Below, in pieces: positions 22,323 to 41,718 of a stretch of 64,000 bases of DNA. The notes beneath the pieces are model-generated. The model was not told the DNA's origin. It made no database searches and was given only the letters and a program-made list of their open reading frames with translations. The translations under genes and the position numbers were made by a program. The DNA comes from Nostoc sp. GTDB taxonomy: Bacteria; Cyanobacteriota; Cyanobacteriia; Cyanobacteriales; Nostocaceae. The stretch lies in NCBI RefSeq assembly GCF_036917315.1, contig NZ_JBALDR010000064.1, positions 159,311 to 223,310 on the forward strand, given 5' to 3'. Each line of letters begins with the position of its first letter. Position 1 is the first letter of the stretch.

Positions 22323-22352
22323 TATAGAGACGTAATTAATTACGTCTCTATA
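22323..22352. repeat. Perfect 30-bp palindrome (REP-like TAGAGACG stem)
   Basis: tatagagacgtaatt|aattacgtctctata. Confidence 0.85.
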
Positions 22353-25533: not shown

Positions 25534-25620
25534 CACAAAGACGCGATAAATCGCCGTCTCTACAAAAAACTAATTATTGTAGAGACGGCGATTCATCGCG
25601 TCTCTTGCCTTAACCGAACA
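25534..25620. repeat. Pair of REP-like GTAGAGACG...CGTCTCTAC palindromes between convergent genes
   Basis: aaagacgcgataaatcgccgtctctac ... gtagagacggcgattcatcgcgtctct. Confidence 0.7.
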
Positions 25621-28977: not shown

Positions 28978-29007
28978 TAGAGGCGTACATATATATGTAC
29001 GCCTCTA
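28978..29007. repeat. Perfect 30-bp palindrome (REP-like TAGAGGCG stem), preceded by STRR CCCCAAT-type repeats
   Basis: tagaggcgtacatat|atatgtacgcctcta. Confidence 0.85.
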
Positions 29008-30480: not shown

Positions 30481-30517
30481 AAAAATCCCGACCTCTTAGA
30501 AAAGTCGGGATTTTTTT
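30481..30517. terminator. Hairpin flanked by A and T runs (bidirectional terminator-like; same family as 57264-57297)
   Basis: aaaaatcccgac ctcttagaaaa gtcgggattttttt. Confidence 0.6.
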
Positions 30518-35743: not shown

Positions 35744-38005
35744 ATGTATAGATTCCAGATCAGTGCATACACTCAAACGGGCGAATCCATTGGTCTGGTG
35801 GGTTCTACTCCAGAGTTGGGTTTGTGGGATATTAGTAAATGTGTTCATCTGCGTACAAGTGGCGATCGCTATCCTTTATGGTGGACAAATATTGATATTC
35901 AAGAGTCAGCCGATGTCTCACGACAAGCCACTTCGTGTCTACGCCAGAAAGTTGAATACAAGTATGTGCGTCTCGATGCAAACGGTAATGCCCGATGGGA
36001 GAGCTTACTAGATACAAACCGCTGGATTCCCATTGAGTCTAACAATCGTGCCAACACAATTATTGTGGATGATGGCGCATTCGGTTATTTACAACCTTAT
36101 CCGTTCGGATATATTGAGAACCCTGCTGTCCGAATACCCGTAGATGAAGACTCTGAAGGGTTAAAAATCGTAGTCATTGGTAGTTCCGTTGCATTAGGTC
36201 ATAAAGCCTGGTTTTTGCAAGGTTGGGTCTGGTTGTTGGCACAGGCTTTACAGCAAAAATATGGGCATAAACTCGTGAATGTGTCGGAGGTGGGGGCGAA
36301 TGTCAGCAGAACGATCGCTCGATTCCCCTGGTTTGTCACCCCAGAAAAACCGGATATCGTCATCATTGCCCTATCTCTGGGTAACGAAGGGTTAGCTTAC
36401 TGTTCCCCTCACGAACGGCGGGCGGCACAACGGCGGTTTGAAAGTGGCTTGCAGCAGCTTGTGAAAATGACGCGCGACATCGGAGCAATCCCGATTCTAG
36501 GCGGAGTCTATCCCAACGGTGATTATTCCTTAGAACATTATCGGCTAATCCGAGACACACACAAACGGATGCTAAGTTGGGGCGTGACTGTATTGGATTG
36601 GTTGGCAGCCGTGGATGATGGACAAGGACGATGGAAAGCTGGGACATCCTTCGATCCGGCTCACCCGAATACAGTCGGTCATAGCCTTATGTATCAGCAG
36701 ATCGACCACCATTTATTCGATATCGACAAAGACGAATTAGCAAAAGAAAAACAAAGCTTCCAGCAACCGAATGAATTTCCTATCTACTTTGATAATGGGG
36801 GCTTTCATATCTCTGTGTGTATAGAAGAGAAGCGTTTACGGATCGTTAATTCATCGGAATACAGCTACACGATCGCTCCCTATTGGCAAGAACTACAAAC
36901 TGCACTGCAAAGTAAGGCTGGATTGATACCGGGTATTTACATTGCGAAGTCTGTCAAGCCGGGGACGCTCCCTTTCTTGGCTGTAGAGGATGGTGCGATC
37001 GCAACTACAATAAACATCCCCCCAAATACCGATCTAGAATATAGCCCCGCCTTCAATCTCTTTTCGTCGAACAACGTTTTATTCGATGACGGGCATTTGG
37101 GGATTTTGCAAGCAGATGAACGCCACCTTTGGATAATCAACGAATCAGACAGCGAGTACAACATTCAGCCGATGTGGACGGAAGTTTGTAACGCACTTAA
37201 AGCCATGCCATCGGGTGTTTATGAAGATCCGCTTTATCCCGATGTCCCGTTTCGCACGATGATGATTGGTAAGGATGGGCTAGAAAGTCGGGTGAAAGCA
37301 CCACCTAAGTCTGCGGTGTTGTTCCAATACAAATGTGAGTTATCGGATATCAGCCGTGTGGCAATTCTTCCCCTTGGCGATCGCTGTGCCGTCCGCATGA
37401 TGCTATATAAGATGGAATATGATGGGCCCGCCTTTCCGTTTGATCTAACGCGCACCACTAATATTGCAGATGTTGCGGATGCGATCGAACACGGTTTTGA
37501 TGATATGTGGAACCCTGCTTTTTTGCATTACAGTCCTGATGCAGGCAGAATTTACCATAGTAAGTGGTCGGGTTTATCCTTTGCCCATGAAGTTGAGGAG
37601 ACAGACGACCCCACGAACGATATGTTTCCCGTCCATGAACGGATGCGCGTTCGTTACACAGCACGCTCTGAAAGGTTTTGGTATGCACTGCGGCATTGCG
37701 ACAAAGTGCTTTTTGTTCGCACAGGAATTAGCGATCGCGGTGGTGTAATTGATCTGGTCAAGAAGCTAGAAAAACAATGCCAGGGGAAGCCATTTCATTT
37801 GTTGCTTCTTTCTCCCCAAAGCGGCGATGAGTTTTTAGACCTTCCCAATGTGCTGCATTACAATGTCGAGTTTAATCCCGATCGCATGTATGACGATTTG
37901 GGACACTGGATGTACTGCACAGAGGTGATGCGAGAAATTCTGCAATCCCTTGGTGTGTCCAGTAAAAACCTTTTTTGGTGTCCGCCGAAAATACCCAAGG
38001 TGTGA
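35744..38005 (+). CDS. CBM20 + SGNH/GDSL hydrolase + DUF1796 (papain-like) fusion protein
   Basis: GESIGLVGSTPELGLWD...YPLWW...VEYKY (CBM20); VIGSSV, GAN, SLGNEG, DPAHP (SGNH blocks); LPLGDRCAVR...FPFD (DUF1796-like). Confidence 0.8.
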   Translation: MYRFQISAYTQTGESIGLVGSTPELGLWDISKCVHLRTSGDRYPLWWTNIDIQESADVSRQATSCLRQKVEYKYVRLDANGNARWESLLDTNRWIPIESNNRANTIIVDDGAFGYLQPYPFGYIENPAVRIPVDEDSEGLKIVVIGSSVALGHKAWFLQGWVWLLAQALQQKYGHKLVNVSEVGANVSRTIARFPWFVTPEKPDIVIIALSLGNEGLAYCSPHERRAAQRRFESGLQQLVKMTRDIGAIPILGGVYPNGDYSLEHYRLIRDTHKRMLSWGVTVLDWLAAVDDGQGRWKAGTSFDPAHPNTVGHSLMYQQIDHHLFDIDKDELAKEKQSFQQPNEFPIYFDNGGFHISVCIEEKRLRIVNSSEYSYTIAPYWQELQTALQSKAGLIPGIYIAKSVKPGTLPFLAVEDGAIATTINIPPNTDLEYSPAFNLFSSNNVLFDDGHLGILQADERHLWIINESDSEYNIQPMWTEVCNALKAMPSGVYEDPLYPDVPFRTMMIGKDGLESRVKAPPKSAVLFQYKCELSDISRVAILPLGDRCAVRMMLYKMEYDGPAFPFDLTRTTNIADVADAIEHGFDDMWNPAFLHYSPDAGRIYHSKWSGLSFAHEVEETDDPTNDMFPVHERMRVRYTARSERFWYALRHCDKVLFVRTGISDRGGVIDLVKKLEKQCQGKPFHLLLLSPQSGDEFLDLPNVLHYNVEFNPDRMYDDLGHWMYCTEVMREILQSLGVSSKNLFWCPPKIPKV
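35915..35941 (+). mobile_element. 27-nt small dispersed repeat inserted in frame at a HIP1-like site
   Basis: GCCGAT[GTCTCACGACAAGCCACTTCGTGTCTA]CGC; adds VSRQATSCL. Confidence 0.7.
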
Positions 38006-38148
38006 GAAATTAGTTAGTGGCGATCCGCTCAAACCCTTTAAATTACTGCTGGCTAGCGCTTTCTAGTATCTATTTCAGAAAATTTTAGTTATCCTTGAAT
38101 ATGCAATATAAAAAAGATTGGCTCCGGTGATTAAAGCATTTTCATCTT

Positions 38149-38373
38149 ATGACAGACCCCGGATCAAATGATAGCCCGGAATTACTTTCTGTAGCTCAAA
38201 CTGCCAAGCTACTTGATGTAACTCGTCAGCGAATTCACGACCTAATTAAGAACGGTCAGATTATAGCTCACAAACTTGGGCGTTACTATTATATAGAAGT
38301 TGCTGAGGTACAGAGGTATAAGAATCAACCTACTGGAAAACCCTATCAGCCGCGTAGTACAAACTCTCAATGA
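38149..38373 (+). CDS. Excisionase/MerR-like HTH DNA-binding protein (putative R-M controller)
   Basis: LLSVAQTAKLLDVTRQRIHDLIKNGQIIAHKLGRYYYI. Confidence 0.85.
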   Translation: MTDPGSNDSPELLSVAQTAKLLDVTRQRIHDLIKNGQIIAHKLGRYYYIEVAEVQRYKNQPTGKPYQPRSTNSQ

Positions 38374-38409
38374 AACTCTATTGACAATTAGCAATAGAGT
38401 TTCTATACT
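38372..38409 (+). promoter_or_regulatory. Sigma70-type promoter of the methyltransferase overlapped by a perfect 12-8-12 operator-like palindrome
   Basis: gaaactctattg (38372-83) acaattag caatagagtttc (38392-403); TTGACA 38381-86, N17, TATACT 38404-09. Confidence 0.75.
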
Positions 38410-38441
38410 CAAGCTATACTAATGTACTAAAGGTTAAGTCA

Positions 38442-39428
38442 ATGCTCCCGTTTCAAGCGATCGCACCTGACGTTGCAACTCAACAAGGACTGCAACAGGT
38501 TTACATTAGTGAGCATGGCATACTCTACCAAGGAGACTGCCTTAAACTTCTATCAGCTTTGCCTAATGAGTCAGTGGATCTGGTATTTGCCGACCCACCT
38601 TTTAATCTTGGTAAAGAATATGGTGAAGGTATAAGCGATCAGATGGAGGCAGATCGGTATCTAAGCTGGTCACAACAGTGGCTGAGTGAGAGCATTCGCA
38701 TACTTAAACCAGGTGGCAGCTTATTTATCTTCAACCTTCCCAAATGGTGTATGGAGTACGGCGCGTACCTAAATCGGAAAGGAATGTGGTTTCGGCATTG
38801 GATTGCTTGCAGAATGCCGAAGGCTTTTCCTAGAGGTAAAAAGATGTCTCCGGCTCATTATGGACTGATCTATTATACAAAAGGTGAGCCAGCCGTTTTC
38901 AACAAAATCTACACACCGATTCAACTCTGTCGGCACTGTGGCGGAGAGATTCGTGATTATGGTGGGCATCGAAAAAGCCTCAATGACAAGGGCATCAACT
39001 TAATGGATGTCTGGGATATGCCAGAAGATGTTTGGGAAGATGCGCCTGAAGCTTCCACTACTGAAGTTTTATGGACGTTAACCGAGGAGATGTGGACTGA
39101 TATTCCACCCGTTCGGCATCGTCGGCACAAAAAACGAGTTCCCAACGAACTAGCTCCCATTATGCTGGAGCGGATTATTGCAATGGCATCTGATCCAGGG
39201 CAGATTGTGGTTGATCCTTTTGGGGGCTCTGGTACTACATTGTATGCAGCAGAAAAACTACACCGTTACTGGATTGGTTCAGAAATTGGAGATATAGAGC
39301 CAGCAGTAGACCGCTTGACTAATTTGGCTAATGGAATTATAGAGCAATGGGAATCGGCAAGGGGAAGCAAGAAATTGAAACAAGGCAAAACAACTGCATT
39401 ACAACTGCCCATTCCTTACTCTACATAG
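38442..39428 (+). CDS. Beta-class N4-C/N6-A DNA methyltransferase (M.BamHI-like)
   Basis: GDCL, VFADPPFNLG (motif IV) before DPFGGSGTT (motif I); PAHYGLIYYTKG. Confidence 0.92.
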   Translation: MLPFQAIAPDVATQQGLQQVYISEHGILYQGDCLKLLSALPNESVDLVFADPPFNLGKEYGEGISDQMEADRYLSWSQQWLSESIRILKPGGSLFIFNLPKWCMEYGAYLNRKGMWFRHWIACRMPKAFPRGKKMSPAHYGLIYYTKGEPAVFNKIYTPIQLCRHCGGEIRDYGGHRKSLNDKGINLMDVWDMPEDVWEDAPEASTTEVLWTLTEEMWTDIPPVRHRRHKKRVPNELAPIMLERIIAMASDPGQIVVDPFGGSGTTLYAAEKLHRYWIGSEIGDIEPAVDRLTNLANGIIEQWESARGSKKLKQGKTTALQLPIPYST

Positions 39429-39446
39429 CTATTCATGCAGGAAAAT

Positions 39447-40040
39447 TTAGACTAATGCACGACCATCTGTTCCTTTGGTGATCTTTGGTACATTTTCATC
39501 TAACCCATCGTGTTCAATCACGAAGATTGCAAGAAAACCTTCTTCAATGCGAACTGCCCGCCAAACATCAAAGTATGGCTCTAGCTCTTCATAATTGCCA
39601 ATACGATCGGTTAGATAAGGGTAGAGTTTTCTACTGGGGAGTACCAAGACAGCACCTAAAAATACACCTCGCAATAATCCAAGACTCAGTTTATTGACTG
39701 CTCGATGGCTTGAAGAGATGTTGCCCGTTTCCCACTCAAGTGCAAAAAGATAGTTGTCAATTATCTTTGTTGCATCGACCTTTCCTGGGGATCGAGTTGC
39801 ATAGTTAATCGAAGTTTCGAGACTCCATCCAAATTTATCTCTCAATGCAATCATGCAAGCATCTTTAATTGGCTTGACACCATTACCGTGCTTTGTTGGA
39901 TTAATTGTAAAACTGGATGCACCAGGAGGATGAACGATTAAAGAGATAGCATCACGAATTTCAGCCCGAATGATATACCAATCGTTTGATTCTTCAAAAT
40001 TCCCAATACTGATCAGAGAAACTTCTTGAACAATTTTCAT
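39447..40040 (-). CDS. BamHI-like type II restriction endonuclease
   Basis: TINPTKHGNGVKPIK, GKVDA, ALEWETGNISSSHRAVNKL, YLTDRIGNYEELEPYF, PKITKGTDG align by eye with BamHI (NGVVPIK, IDV, EFETGNISSAHRSMNKL, YLTDRVTNFEELEPYF, IPKGSDG). Confidence 0.9.
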   Translation of the reverse strand: MKIVQEVSLISIGNFEESNDWYIIRAEIRDAISLIVHPPGASSFTINPTKHGNGVKPIKDACMIALRDKFGWSLETSINYATRSPGKVDATKIIDNYLFALEWETGNISSSHRAVNKLSLGLLRGVFLGAVLVLPSRKLYPYLTDRIGNYEELEPYFDVWRAVRIEEGFLAIFVIEHDGLDENVPKITKGTDGRALV

Positions 40041-40212
40041 ACTAACTACTGATTAACTTAGCTATGCAAAAGTAGTGCAGGTTTGCCTATTTGTTGCCAG
40101 AGTTAAGCTTTGTTTCTACATCGTCTAACAGATAATCTCGCGCTACGGCCTCATAGTCAACTCGAAGCCAGCTAACTTTAAAACTCCAGGTCTAATTGGG
40201 CGTTGACGATCG

Positions 40213-41718
40213 CTATGCTTGAAATAGCTCAACCACCGTTGGCTTAGTCACTTTCCCCATCGCGTTGCGCGGTAATTCTTCAACTATCAAAATTTGGGTT
40301 GGCACTTTATAAACAGCCAATCGCTCTTTTGCCCAACTCCTGAAAGCTTGTAATGTTAAAGGTTGTGAACCTTGCAATACTAACGCGGCACACACCCGTT
40401 CGCCCCATTCTAAATCAGCAACCCCAACCACTGCACATTCCTGAATATCTGGATGCGATCGCAATACCTCTTCAATTTCTAAAGCTGAAACTTTATACCC
40501 TCCGGTTTTGATGATATCCACACTCATCCGTCCCAGAATTCGGTAGTTGTCATTCTCAATTACGGCGGTGTCTCCAGTACGGAACCAGCCATCTTGGAAG
40601 GCTTTGGCGGTTGCTTCAGGGTTTTGCCAATATTCGAGAAACACTCCAGGGCCTTTAACTTGGATCTCTCCTGGTGTTCGGGCTAGAACTAACTCTCCGT
40701 TCTCATCTACTAATCTTACTTCAACTTGAGGTAAAGGTTTCCCCACATATCCAGCCAACCGTTCACCGTGTAAAGGGTTCGATAACGCCATGCCGATTTC
40801 AGTCATACCATAGCGCTCAAGCAGAAAATGGCCGCTGATGGTTTGCCACTTTTCTAAAACTTGAACTGGTAATGCTGCCGAGCCAGAAACCATCAGGCGC
40901 ATCTTAGCACAGCCTTCTGACATACTTTTTTGGCGTTCTTTAGAGGCAGTTTCCCAAGCCGCAATTAGTTTCACATAAATTGTTGGTACTGCCATAAATA
41001 AGGTTAAGTCACCATCACAAATTCGGTTCCAAACGGTTTCGGCATCAAATTTGCTCAATATATGGCATTCCGCCCCAGCCCATAAAGCACAAGTCAGTAC
41101 GTTAATAATTCCATGAATATGATGTAGTGGCAGGATATGTAAAATGCGATCGTCCGATGTCCATTCCCAAGCAGTATTTAAGCTAGTCACTTGCGCTTGA
41201 ATATTTTGGTGAGTCGTAACTACACCTTTTGGTTTACCAGTTGTACCACTGGTGTAAAGAATTAAGGCGCGTCTAGTGATATCTATCTTCGGGAGGCGAC
41301 TAACATTAGATGAGAGCGTTTCTGAGGTAAGAATAAATCGCAAATTGTGTGCTTCGGCGAGCGATGCCTGCGGCGGTAAACTACGCAGTATATCCTCAAA
41401 ATTAGGATGAGCAATAATAATCGATGCTCCAGAATTGGTAATTACATACTCCAATTCTGGGCGTGGATGGGAAACACACAGAGGTACAGCTATGCCACCA
41501 GCCCGCCAAATTCCCCATTGAGTGGCTACATACTCAAACCCAGGCGGAATGAGAAAGGCAACTCGCTGCTCTTGTAAATCTTCTGCATTTTGAAGAAGAC
41601 TTGTTGCTATTTGACTGGAAGTGTGTAGCAAATCCCGATAGGTAAATGCTCCGTCCGTTGTCACAATTGCGGTTTTTTCGTTATATTCTTCAGCACGAAT
41701 AATTAATGGGATATTCAC
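40213..41718 (-). CDS. Acyl-CoA synthetase, malonyl-CoA synthetase (MatB/ACSF3)-like
   Basis: YTSGTTGKPKG, LPLHHIHG, ERYGMTE, FRTGD, IIKTGGYKVSALEIE, GKVTK. Confidence 0.88.
   Translation of the reverse strand: MNIPLIIRAEEYNEKTAIVTTDGAFTYRDLLHTSSQIATSLLQNAEDLQEQRVAFLIPPGFEYVATQWGIWRAGGIAVPLCVSHPRPELEYVITNSGASIIIAHPNFEDILRSLPPQASLAEAHNLRFILTSETLSSNVSRLPKIDITRRALILYTSGTTGKPKGVVTTHQNIQAQVTSLNTAWEWTSDDRILHILPLHHIHGIINVLTCALWAGAECHILSKFDAETVWNRICDGDLTLFMAVPTIYVKLIAAWETASKERQKSMSEGCAKMRLMVSGSAALPVQVLEKWQTISGHFLLERYGMTEIGMALSNPLHGERLAGYVGKPLPQVEVRLVDENGELVLARTPGEIQVKGPGVFLEYWQNPEATAKAFQDGWFRTGDTAVIENDNYRILGRMSVDIIKTGGYKVSALEIEEVLRSHPDIQECAVVGVADLEWGERVCAALVLQGSQPLTLQAFRSWAKERLAVYKVPTQILIVEELPRNAMGKVTKPTVVELFQA
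41366..41383 (+). mobile_element. 18-nt small dispersed repeat inserted in frame in a HIP1 site of the acyl-CoA synthetase
   Basis: GCGAT[GCCTGCGGCGGTAAACTA]CGC; protein reads LR-SLPPQA-SLAEAH instead of LRSLAEAH. Confidence 0.85.

What the first reader, a model, noticed from the sequence alone, without database searches (positions are those of the whole stretch)
38149..40040. BamHI-like R-M cassette with an excisionase-type HTH gene and an operator over the methyltransferase promoter
Seen: the order is HTH(+), MTase(+), then convergent REase(-). Starting within the HTH stop codon is a perfect inverted repeat, gaaactctattg-N8-caatagagtttc, covering the -35 and spacer of TTGACA-N17-TATACT, 32 bp before the MTase ATG. 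I saw no copy upstream of the HTH or REase genes. Established: classical controllers such as C.BamHI are XRE-type HTH proteins that chiefly time REase expression. Inference: this is a different regulatory design, in which a MerR/Xis-like winged HTH, or the MTase itself, controls a strong MTase promoter.
Basis: partly seen in the sequence, partly recalled or inferred. Interest (0 to 1): 0.75.

Follow-up and report, generated by a model that had tools for sequence, protein, structure and literature searches.

The report
Xis-fold controller of BamHI-type restriction cassette
A 2.2-kb mobile BamHI-type restriction-modification cassette carries a small excisionase-fold DNA-binding protein plus a conserved palindrome over the methylase promoter, which together most likely form a previously undescribed kind of on-board controller that turns methylase expression down after the cassette has established itself.

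Summary
The gene order is HTH (38149-38373, +), MTase (38442-39428, +) and a convergent REase (39447-40040, -). A perfect 12-N8-12 inverted repeat (38372-38403) covers the -35 box and spacer of TTGACA-N17-TATACT.

The REase is BamHI/OkrAI family. The MTase is 41% identical to that of a classical BamHI-like system. The HTH is HTH_17/excisionase type, and its model has a Xis/BldC-like fold.

Comparative evidence:
- All 57 aligned cassettes with the HTH keep TCTATTGAC-N4-GnCAATAGA; in the 51 scored it starts 63-71 nt (mostly 66) before the MTase ATG.
- 23 M-R pairs without the HTH lack it.
- HTH homologues down to about 50% identity, including Chloroflexota, occur only in this triad and keep the same operator.
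- The operator cores are 97% and 88% identical, although synonymous divergence is about 0.84.
- Classical BamHI-like plasmid systems instead have an XRE-type C gene in front of R.

Best explanation: the HTH is a dedicated repressor of a near-consensus MTase promoter. The control logic is closest to Kpn2I, but the protein fold and gene layout differ. Binding, the transcription start site and the timing are inferred, not shown.

Verdict: a new variant of a known kind, of moderate interest.

The parts
38026..40214 (.). The inserted R-M cassette (about 2.19 kb). It sits between two convergent housekeeping genes: a CBM20/GDSL protein ending at 38005 and an AMP-binding acyl-CoA synthetase ending at 40213.
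   Evidence: The empty site in Nostoc sp. B(2019), locus L159, aligns with the window up to 38025 and again from 40215. L163, L170 and L177 are also empty.
38083..38107 (+). Conserved block (A..A..T.AGTTA..CTT.A..ATGCAA) about 45-65 nt upstream of the HTH start codon. It is a candidate promoter or regulatory region for the HTH gene; its function is not established.
   Evidence: It is conserved at 80% or more across the 29 HTH-carrying cassettes that passed a motif pre-filter for part of this block, so the breadth is overstated. It is retained in the HTH-less deletion derivatives L012-L014, where it is fused to the MTase 5'UTR. The promoter scan found no good sigma-70 consensus here.
38149..38373 (+). 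Gene for a 74-aa HTH_17 / excisionase-family winged-helix protein, the proposed controller.
   Evidence: Pfam HTH_17 at 2.4e-11 and TIGR01764 at 5.6e-9. The AF2 model reads beta-alpha-alpha-beta-beta-alpha, with block-mean pLDDT of 82-88 over roughly residues 11-60; the closest structures are Xis 4j2n and BldC 6ama. dN/dS is 0.10 at dS 0.84. The gene is found only in this triad.
38372..38403 (.). Palindromic operator. In this copy it is a perfect 12-N8-12 repeat. The conserved core is TCTATTGAC-N4-GnCAATAGA at 38377-38398.
   Evidence: core identity 0.97 and 0.88, against 0.56-0.72 in the flanks. The same core occurs in Chloroflexota cassettes.
38381..38409 (+). Predicted MTase promoter PM: -35 TTGACA (38381-38386), 17-nt spacer, -10 TATACT (38404-38409). 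The predicted transcription start is near 38416.
   Evidence: 11 of 12. The -35 box is kept as TTGACA in 54 of 57 loci, and the T and A of the -10 box are invariant. The start site has not been mapped.
38442..39428 (+). Beta-class N6/N4 DNA methyltransferase (328 aa), the cognate MTase of the cassette.
   Evidence: Pfam N6_N4_Mtase at 2.7e-39. PADLOC MTase_II at 1.2e-89. 41% identity to the MTase of the Desulfocapsa BamHI-like system.
39447..40040 (-). BamHI/OkrAI-family type IIP restriction endonuclease (197 aa), convergent with the MTase.
   Evidence: Pfam BamHI at 1.4e-78. OkrAI 3odh at 2.3e-60 and BamHI 1bam at 5.1e-29, with the E-x-E, HR and TDR motifs aligned.
40041..40214 (-). REase upstream region inside the cassette. 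It carries no operator copy. One weak promoter-like match (TTGACT-N17-GATTAT) lies at 40160-40132.
   Evidence: About 95 nt next to the ATG are shared by a subset of loci; in the others the sequence differs right up to about 15 nt from the ATG.

Best explanation
The segment 38026-40214 is a self-contained, horizontally mobile type IIP restriction-modification cassette of the BamHI/OkrAI family. Its probable target is GGATCC.

Its third gene encodes a 74-aa excisionase/BldC-fold winged-helix protein that serves as the cassette's own transcriptional controller. Two copies of the protein bind the 22-bp palindrome TCTATTGAC-N4-GnCAATAGA. The left arm of the palindrome contains the -35 hexamer of the near-consensus MTase promoter, and the right arm fills the spacer. 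Binding would therefore occlude RNA polymerase and repress PM.

Proposed timing (inferred):
1. On entry into a naive cell no controller is present, so PM fires at full strength and the genome is methylated.
2. The controller, made from its own non-consensus upstream promoter, accumulates and turns PM down to a maintenance level. This keeps the MTase from protecting incoming phage DNA.
3. The REase has no operator and variable upstream DNA, so it is probably transcribed constitutively and weakly.
4. M and R converge with an 18-nt gap and no terminator. Strong early PM transcription may therefore also interfere with R transcription, and repression of PM would relieve that interference.
5. A bound controller at the 3' end of its own ORF may also block read-through into M.

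Shown here: gene identities, the protein fold, conservation of the operator and promoter, strict linkage of the HTH gene to the operator, and mobility of the cassette.

Inferred: DNA binding, the sign of regulation, the transcription start site, the timing, and the interference between convergent transcripts.
For: 1. Identity of the parts.

2. Fold: the AF2 model has mean pLDDT 76, with block means of 82-88 over roughly residues 11-60. The top Foldseek hits are Pukovnik Xis (rmsd 1.3 A over 49 residues), BldC and RdfS.

3. Co-occurrence: 51 of 51 HTH-carrying cassettes match the operator consensus at 16-20 of 20 positions, starting 63-71 nt (mostly 66) before the MTase ATG. The 23 HTH-less M-R pairs score 10-16 of 20; some keep only the -35 half.

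4. Exclusive linkage: 53 of 58 HTH loci in species-representative genomes are hit by all three proteins, although in three of them (L092, L103, L115) the REase is frameshifted or truncated. One of the remaining five is cut by a contig end and four are decayed cassettes. Chloroflexota and metagenomic homologues at 50-65% identity sit in the same triad and have the same operator and a TTGACA-N17 -10 arrangement. This holds even where the 5'UTR is about 100 nt longer.

5. Constraint: operator cores are 0.97 and 0.88 identical, against 0.56-0.72 for the flanks, while the HTH gene's dS is 0.84 and its dN/dS is 0.10. The left arm is equally conserved where a premature stop makes it non-coding, as in the window, L003, L008, L020, L021 and L049.

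6. Joint loss: in L012-L014 the HTH gene, the operator and PM were all removed by deletions with at least two different junctions.

7. Contrast: BamHI-family systems on Desulfocapsa and Geobacillus plasmids use an HTH_3 C gene in front of R.

8. Precedent for the logic: C.Kpn2I represses a strong M promoter at its -35 box, R is constitutive, and the binding site lies inside the C gene (PMC6237814).

9. Weak transcript data: in 12 lake metatranscriptomes laid on a related cassette (L051), about 16 contig pieces lie on M, 5 on R and 1 on the HTH 5' end. None crosses the HTH 3' end and operator.
Against: - There is no binding, footprint, reporter or transcription-start data for any member.
- The transcript evidence comes from unstranded, low-depth contigs. 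One piece runs 4 nt upstream of the predicted -10 box, and one 'RNA?' contig on the window starts 17 nt upstream of the palindrome.
- The structurally characterised Xis and BldC relatives are described, from my own knowledge and not tested here, as binding direct repeats as monomers or head-to-tail arrays, not palindromes. The model shows no obvious dimerisation element.
- The operator lies downstream of the controller gene, so there is no evident autoregulation and the steady-state MTase level is unexplained.
- The outer stem positions show slight symmetric covariation (21 cells against 13.7 expected; 7 of 500 shuffles reach this). That would also fit a hairpin role.
- M appears to be at least as well represented as R and the HTH gene in environmental RNA, so repression, if real, is partial.
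Confidence: 0.7

Rival explanations
1. The HTH is a MerR-style activator. It binds the dyad between -35 and -10 and stimulates PM rather than repressing it.
For: The protein belongs to the MerR-like/HTH_17 superfamily. From general knowledge, MerR operators are dyads lying within the promoter spacer. M transcripts are readily detected in established populations.
Against: The promoter already matches the consensus at 11 of 12 positions with an optimal 17-nt spacer. MerR-type activation acts on over-long 19-20 nt spacers. The dyad is centred about 29 nt upstream of the predicted start site (predicted geometry) and includes the -35 hexamer itself. The protein lacks the coiled-coil and effector domain of MerR proteins (74 aa). 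HTH-less cassettes keep a TTGACA-N17-TATTAT promoter without the right arm.
Confidence: 0.07
2. The palindrome works mainly as an RNA or DNA hairpin, that is, a terminator or attenuator that insulates the HTH transcript from M. It would not be a protein operator.
For: The RNA folds into a 12-bp stem, with a z-score of -3.4 against shuffles. 80% of cells pair across 57 sequences, and there is weak covariation in the outer pairs. No metatranscriptome contig crosses this region.
Against: No U-tract follows the stem, and the terminator scan does not call it. The seven core pairs are essentially invariant in sequence rather than covarying. Single-arm changes that break pairing are common; at the individual core pairs (columns 31-37 with 44-50) 0-6 sequences are unpaired at six pairs and 36 at one. 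A structural role alone does not explain why the sequence itself is fixed across two phyla, why it coincides with a -35 box at a constant spacing from a -10 box, or why it vanishes with the HTH gene.
Confidence: 0.08
3. The palindrome is bound by the MTase or by a host factor. The HTH protein would have another role, such as acting on the REase gene or on host genes.
For: Self-regulating MTases exist: the SsoII/Ecl18kI type (PMC2760811) and regulation by promoter methylation (review PMC12707154). No experiment links the HTH protein to this site.
Against: The MTase is a bare catalytic domain (Pfam domain at residues 45-283 of 328), and it is shorter than its 417-aa classical relative. No GGATCC lies in the promoter. 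The palindrome is absent from the 23 loci that keep a homologous MTase but lack the HTH gene. A host factor is unlikely to be shared by Cyanobacteriota and Chloroflexota. No other conserved candidate site for the HTH protein exists in the cassette.
Confidence: 0.08
4. The HTH is a true excisionase or recombination directionality factor. The inverted repeat would be a recombination site used to move the cassette.
For: The protein is a member of the excisionase family. The cassette is clearly mobile, with empty and occupied sites.
Against: There is no integrase, transposase or attachment-like repeat within 38026-40214; the cassette contains only the three ORFs. The palindrome is internal rather than at the cassette ends, and it is locked to the promoter hexamers.
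Confidence: 0.03

Closest known systems
Kpn2I R-M system and its controller C.Kpn2I (Klimuk et al. 2018, PMC6237814)
   Same: A small dedicated DNA-binding protein acts at the -35 region of a strong MTase promoter. The REase promoter is weak and independent of the controller. The binding site lies inside the controller's own coding region, which holds here for most homologues, where the ORF reads into the operator. The expected outcome is the same: MTase first, then MTase turned down.
   Different: C.Kpn2I is an XRE-type C protein whose gene is divergent from M, with overlapping promoters. Here the protein has an excisionase/BldC fold, its gene is co-directional with and upstream of M, the operator is at the 3' end of the gene, and R is convergent. 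Nothing has been tested experimentally here.
Classical C-protein control (C.BamHI, C.PvuII, C.AhdI, C.Esp1396I)
   Same: A small regulator carried on board a type II R-M cassette, with a palindromic operator and a presumed role in timing establishment. C.Esp1396I also represses M.
   Different: Classical C proteins are HTH_3/XRE proteins. They are encoded just upstream of R and co-transcribed with it, and they activate and then repress their own promoter through C-boxes. That layout is seen in BamHI-family plasmid systems. None of these three features holds here.
SsoII/Ecl18kI-type regulatory MTases (PMC2760811)
   Same: Negative control of the MTase promoter by an HTH module that binds an operator at PM.
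   Different: There the HTH is fused to the N-terminus of the MTase, giving true autorepression. Here it is a separate gene of a different fold, transcribed from its own upstream region.
Small MerR-like/Xis-fold DNA binders: BldC (6ama, 6amk), mycobacteriophage Pukovnik Xis (4j2n), RdfS (8dgl)
   Same: The fold and size are the same: rmsd 1.3-1.6 A over 45-50 residues for Pukovnik Xis and BldC (3.8-4.9 A for RdfS), and Foldseek probability 0.99-1.00. All have a stand-alone winged HTH with no effector domain.
   Different: From my own knowledge (not tested here), those proteins bind direct repeats and act in recombination or development. Here the site is a palindrome on a promoter inside an R-M cassette. 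Sequence similarity is marginal (4j2n E = 0.17).
BamHI and OkrAI restriction-modification systems
   Same: The REase is a clear family member, and the catalytic and recognition motifs align. The MTase is homologous to that of a BamHI-like system.
   Different: The cyanobacterial and Chloroflexota cassettes are minimal: REase 197 aa, and an MTase of 328 aa lacking about 90 N-terminal residues. Their genes converge, and the controller is not homologous to C.BamHI.

Membership tests
BamHI-family type IIP R-M system | REase with the BamHI fold and catalytic/recognition motifs | tested here: met
   Pfam PF02923 at 1.4e-78 over the full profile. OkrAI at 2.3e-60 and BamHI at 5.1e-29, with EWE, SSSHR and LTDR aligned to the BamHI EFE, SSAHR and LTDR motifs.
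BamHI-family type IIP R-M system | Adjacent cognate DNA methyltransferase | tested here: met
   PF01555 at 2.7e-39. 41% identity over 281 residues to the MTase next to a BamHI-type REase on the Desulfocapsa plasmid.
BamHI-family type IIP R-M system | Recognition of GGATCC and protective methylation of that site | not testable with these tools
   GGATCC occurs 0 times in 64 kb against 4.6 expected. At least 15 other 6-bp palindromes are also absent, so this is not specific. A methylome or a cleavage assay is needed.
Classical R-M controller (C) proteins | XRE/HTH_3-type helix-turn-helix protein | tested here: not met
   No HTH_3, HTH_19 or HTH_31 hit. The best match is HTH_17, and the fold matches Xis/BldC. 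True C genes of BamHI-like systems score HTH_3 at 2.5e-13.
Classical R-M controller (C) proteins | Gene immediately upstream of, and co-oriented with, the REase gene | tested here: not met
   The HTH gene is upstream of M, and R lies on the opposite strand at the far end. The layout is the same in all triads examined.
Classical R-M controller (C) proteins | Operator (C-box) upstream of its own gene, giving autoregulation | tested here: not met
   No copy of the half-site lies upstream of the HTH gene in 50 cassettes. The only site is at the 3' end of the gene, over PM.
Kpn2I-like control logic | Controller site at the -35 region of a strong MTase promoter | tested here: met
   The left arm contains TTGACA, and the palindrome spans the -35 box and the spacer of an 11-of-12 promoter match. 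This is conserved in 54 of 57 loci. Occupancy has not been tested.
Kpn2I-like control logic | REase promoter independent of the controller | tested here: inconclusive
   No operator copy lies near R, and the R upstream DNA differs between loci. No expression data are available.
Excisionase / HTH_17 (TIGR01764) family | Sequence match above the curated thresholds, and a winged-helix fold | tested here: met
   HTH_17 scores 44.1 bits (cut-off 27) and TIGR01764 scores 36.2 (cut-off 28.8). The model shows beta-alpha-alpha-beta-beta-alpha, with TM-score 0.80-0.83 to 4j2n.
Excisionase / HTH_17 (TIGR01764) family | Acts with a partner integrase at attachment sites (recombination directionality factor) | tested here: not met
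   The inserted segment 38026-40214 holds only the HTH, M and R genes. The flanks are housekeeping genes that are adjacent in empty sites.
Intrinsic terminator | GC-rich stem followed by a U-tract | tested here: not met
   The scan does not call it. The stem is AT-rich and is followed by UAUACUC.

The most novel reading that the evidence does not exclude
A second, non-homologous class of R-M controller proteins exists, built on the excisionase/BldC winged-helix fold. It would time establishment by acting only on a consensus MTase promoter. The REase would be de-repressed indirectly, through relief of convergent transcriptional interference. The operator doubles as the last codons of the controller ORF, so the bound protein would also block read-through. 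The module has travelled with a minimal BamHI-type cassette between Cyanobacteriota and Chloroflexota.
Probability: 0.35. Interest if true: 0.65.

Novelty: new variant of a known kind. Interest (0 to 1): 0.55.

Why it matters
In current reviews, regulation of type II R-M systems is covered by four modes: promoter methylation, HTH-fused MTases, antisense RNA, and XRE-type C proteins (PMC12707154).

A dedicated controller of a different fold, fixed in at least 58 species-representative genomes plus Chloroflexota assemblies and metagenomic contigs (two phyla), would show that on-board R-M control evolved more than once.

It would also give annotation pipelines and REBASE-type resources a new marker for regulated cassettes. 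At present these genes are labelled only 'helix-turn-helix domain-containing protein'.

It would provide a compact repressor-operator pair (74 aa, 22 bp) native to cyanobacteria.

Finally, it bears on the genetic tractability of Nostoc and related strains, where BamHI-type restriction and its control affect transformation.

Tried and rejected
- RNA evidence for the window itself: only DNA metagenomes and one doubtful 'RNA?' run hold the sequence. Its fragmentary, unstranded contigs at about 90% identity are uninformative.
- Metatranscriptome contigs laid on a related Aphanizomenon cassette show that M, R and the HTH gene are transcribed. They are too sparse and unstranded to map a transcription start site.
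- A second operator copy upstream of the HTH or R genes: none was found. A recurrent TTTATTGAC inside the REase gene (39689-39697) lies in the conserved HRAVNKL codons and was judged a coding by-product.
- An HTH homologue on plasmids: no hit.
- Literature on an excisionase-, MerR- or winged-helix-type R-M controller: nothing was found. One search on the MADS system was wasted on the mitotic protein MAD1.
- GGATCC avoidance as evidence of specificity: rejected as unspecific.
- A sigma-70 promoter for the HTH gene in the conserved upstream block: no convincing hexamers.
- The search for related loci with a five-sequence distant alignment failed. It was replaced by the search for homologous proteins followed by the look-up of encoding contigs.
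- A dimer or DNA-complex structure prediction could not be run with the tools available.
Full report
**Observation.**
- Three ORFs are present: HTH 38149-38373 (+, 74 aa), MTase 38442-39428 (+, 328 aa) and REase 39447-40040 (-, 197 aa).
- The inverted repeat GAAACTCTATTG-N8-CAATAGAGTTTC lies at 38372-38383 / 38392-38403 and is perfect. It begins at the G of the TGA stop codon.
- TTGACA (38381-38386), a 17-nt spacer and TATACT (38404-38409) give an 11-of-12 promoter match, the best in the region. The -10 box ends 32 nt before the ATG.
- No other copy of the arm exists in the window.
- Perfect 12-bp inverted repeats are expected 0.22 times per 64 kb.

**Identity of the genes.**
- The REase is a full-length BamHI-family enzyme: Pfam 1.4e-78, OkrAI 2.3e-60, BamHI 5e-29. 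The acidic E-x-E motif and the HR and TDR recognition motifs align. That these motifs are the catalytic and recognition residues of BamHI is my recollection of the BamHI structures, not something tested here.
- The MTase is a beta-class N6/N4 enzyme. It is 41% identical to the MTase next to a BamHI-type REase on a Desulfocapsa plasmid, but it lacks about 90 N-terminal residues.
- The small protein is HTH_17/TIGR01764, above both curated cut-offs.
- An AlphaFold model built from 46 homologues has mean pLDDT 76, with block means of 82-88 over roughly residues 11-60. It shows beta-alpha-alpha-beta-beta-alpha followed by a disordered, proline-rich tail. Its nearest solved structures are mycobacteriophage Pukovnik Xis, BldC and RdfS.
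- It is not an XRE-type protein.

**Comparative genomics: linkage.**
- A scan of one genome per species with the REase gave 80 cyanobacterial loci.
- 51 carry the HTH gene in the same position (49 full HTH-M-R triads; in two the REase match is N-terminally incomplete). In all 51 the upstream region of M contains CTCTATTGAC-N4-GnCAATAGAG (16-20 of 20 consensus positions), starting 63-71 nt, mostly 66 nt, before the ATG.
- The 23 scorable loci with M and R but no HTH gene score 10-16 of 20. The Microcoleus group keeps the -35 half and a TATTAT -10 box at the same distance but has lost the right arm.
- Searching from the HTH side gave 58 loci. In 53 all three proteins are hit, although three of these have a broken REase. 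One of the other five is cut by a contig end and four are visibly decayed cassettes.
- A profile search of 1.84 billion representative proteins collapses the clade to two representatives. It then finds homologues at about 50% identity whose C-termini still read ...NSIDK, which is the translation of the operator's left arm.
- These homologues, together with a Chloroflexota clade (Kouleothrix, 'Chloroflexi bacterium AL-W'), sit in the same HTH_17 -> N6_N4_Mtase -> <- BamHI triad.
- They keep TCTATTGAC-N4-GnnAATAGA followed at the right spacing by a -10 box. This holds even where the 5'UTR is about 100 nt longer.
- More distant HTH_17 proteins lie in phage-like contexts without these genes.

**Comparative genomics: strength of constraint.**
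- Mean pairwise identity across 57 loci is 0.97 for the left core, 0.88 for the right core and 0.80 for the -10 box. It is 0.56-0.72 for the neighbouring coding, outer-arm and 5'UTR segments.
- The HTH gene itself has dS about 0.84 and dN/dS about 0.10.
- In most homologues the ORF is 80-82 aa and runs into the palindrome. In the window and five other loci an earlier stop or a frameshifted tail takes the left arm out of the conserved reading frame, yet it is equally conserved. The constraint is therefore on the DNA, not on the peptide.
- In L012-L014 the HTH gene, the operator and PM are all missing, through deletions with at least two different junctions. This fuses a conserved block upstream of the HTH gene directly to the MTase 5'UTR. 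It implies that this upstream region can drive M on its own.

**Hairpin or operator.**
- The RNA would fold into a 12-bp stem, with a z-score of -3.4.
- However, no U-tract follows the stem, and the terminator scan does not call it.
- On the 57-sequence alignment the seven core pairs are invariant in sequence rather than covarying, and single-arm changes that break pairing occur repeatedly.
- Only the outer pairs show a weak excess of double changes: 21 cells against 13.7 expected, reached by 7 of 500 shuffles.
- This pattern, the fixed register with the promoter hexamers and the strict co-inheritance with the HTH gene all favour a sequence-specific protein site. A secondary hairpin or roadblock role is not excluded.

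**Mobility.**
- In Nostoc sp. B(2019), Calothrix NIES-4105 and other genomes, the two flanking housekeeping genes (a CBM20/GDSL protein and an acyl-CoA synthetase) are direct convergent neighbours.
- Alignment places the insertion at about 38026-40214.
- Other Nostoc genomes carry REase or MTase fragments at this site (L147, L152, L156).
- Several cassettes elsewhere have a broken REase but an intact HTH-M pair (L092, L103, L115).
- The insert contains no integrase or transposase.

**Comparison with known systems.**
- BamHI-family systems on Desulfocapsa and Geobacillus plasmids have the classical layout: a divergent M, and an HTH_3 C gene overlapping or just upstream of R.
- A 2025 review lists promoter methylation, HTH-fused MTases, antisense RNAs and C proteins as the regulatory modes. 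It does not mention excisionase- or MerR-type regulators.
- Targeted literature searches found none either.
- The nearest precedent in logic is Kpn2I. There the C protein blocks the -35 box of a strong M promoter, R is constitutive, and the site lies within the C gene, where it acts as a roadblock.
- The present system shares that logic but uses a non-homologous protein and a different gene arrangement.

**Mechanism proposed.** The HTH protein binds the palindrome as two subunits and represses PM by occluding the -35 box and the spacer.
1. PM is fully active in a naive host.
2. It is then throttled as the controller accumulates from its weak upstream promoter.
3. R is constitutive.
4. The convergent arrangement has no terminator: the gap is 18 nt here, and the called M and R genes overlap by 4 nt in the Chloroflexota and metagenomic loci. 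Early PM transcription may therefore also dampen R.

These steps are inference. The only transcript data are sparse, unstranded metatranscriptome contigs. They show M covered more than R, and R more than the HTH gene, with no piece crossing the operator.

**Verdict.** It is a new variant of a known kind of system: an R-M controller of a different fold and layout. It is not a new principle. Interest is moderate (0.55), and confidence in the repressor model is about 0.7.

Noticed in passing
window 38026-40214; loci L159, L163, L170, L177 (empty sites); L147, L152, L156 (remnants): The cassette is an insertion between two convergent housekeeping genes that are direct neighbours in other cyanobacteria. 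Related Nostoc genomes carry only REase or MTase fragments at the same site, which indicates repeated gain and decay.
   Followed up: yes
L012, L013, L014 (upstream of the MTase gene): In these derivatives the HTH gene, the operator and PM have been deleted, with at least two different junctions. A conserved block from upstream of the HTH gene is fused to the MTase 5'UTR. This is a natural test suggesting that M can be run from the HTH promoter alone.
   Followed up: partly
window 38083-38107: A conserved block, A..A..T.AGTTA..CTT.A..ATGCAA, lies 45-65 nt upstream of the HTH start codon in many cassettes. It has no convincing sigma-70 hexamers, and its function is unknown.
   Followed up: partly
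L092, L103, L115, L126: These cassettes have a frameshifted or truncated REase but an intact HTH gene, operator and MTase (in L126 the MTase is also deleted). They are possible regulated orphan methyltransferases.
   Followed up: partly
window 39689-39697: TTTATTGAC, which differs from an operator half-site by one base, lies inside the REase gene. It recurs in 17 of 50 cassettes and falls in the conserved HRAVNKL codons, so it is probably a coding by-product.
   Followed up: partly
window 38415-38420: A second TATACT lies 11 nt downstream of the first -10 box and is conserved as TATAC/TATAT in many loci. It has no suitably spaced -35 box. It could be an alternative -10 box or a 5'UTR element.
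   Followed up: no
window 22323-22352, 25550-25590, 28978-29007, 30481-30515: Four other perfect 12-bp or longer inverted repeats are present. Three share a GAGACG/CGTCTC-like core, which suggests a family of short hairpin repeats dispersed in this genome.
   Followed up: no
whole window: At least 15 six-base palindromes are absent altogether, for example CTGCAG (0 against 15.8 expected), GCGCGC (0 against 7.6) and CCATGG (0 against 6.7). The HIP1 octamer GCGATCGC occurs 65 times. This is the signature of a cyanobacterial genome shaped by many R-M systems.
   Followed up: no
proteins P0122, P0124, P0126-P0128 and others: After the cassette clade, the next-closest relatives of the HTH protein are 220-250-aa proteins made of three to five tandem copies of the same HTH_17 domain. 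Their context and function were not examined.
   Followed up: no
window 40041-40135 and the homologous regions of about 20 loci: About 95 nt upstream of the REase ATG (GTAGAAAC.AAGCTTAACTCT...CAAATAGGCAAA.CTGCACTACT.TTGC.TAGC) is shared by a subset of cassettes and replaced by unrelated DNA in the others. It may be an alternative REase promoter module.
   Followed up: no
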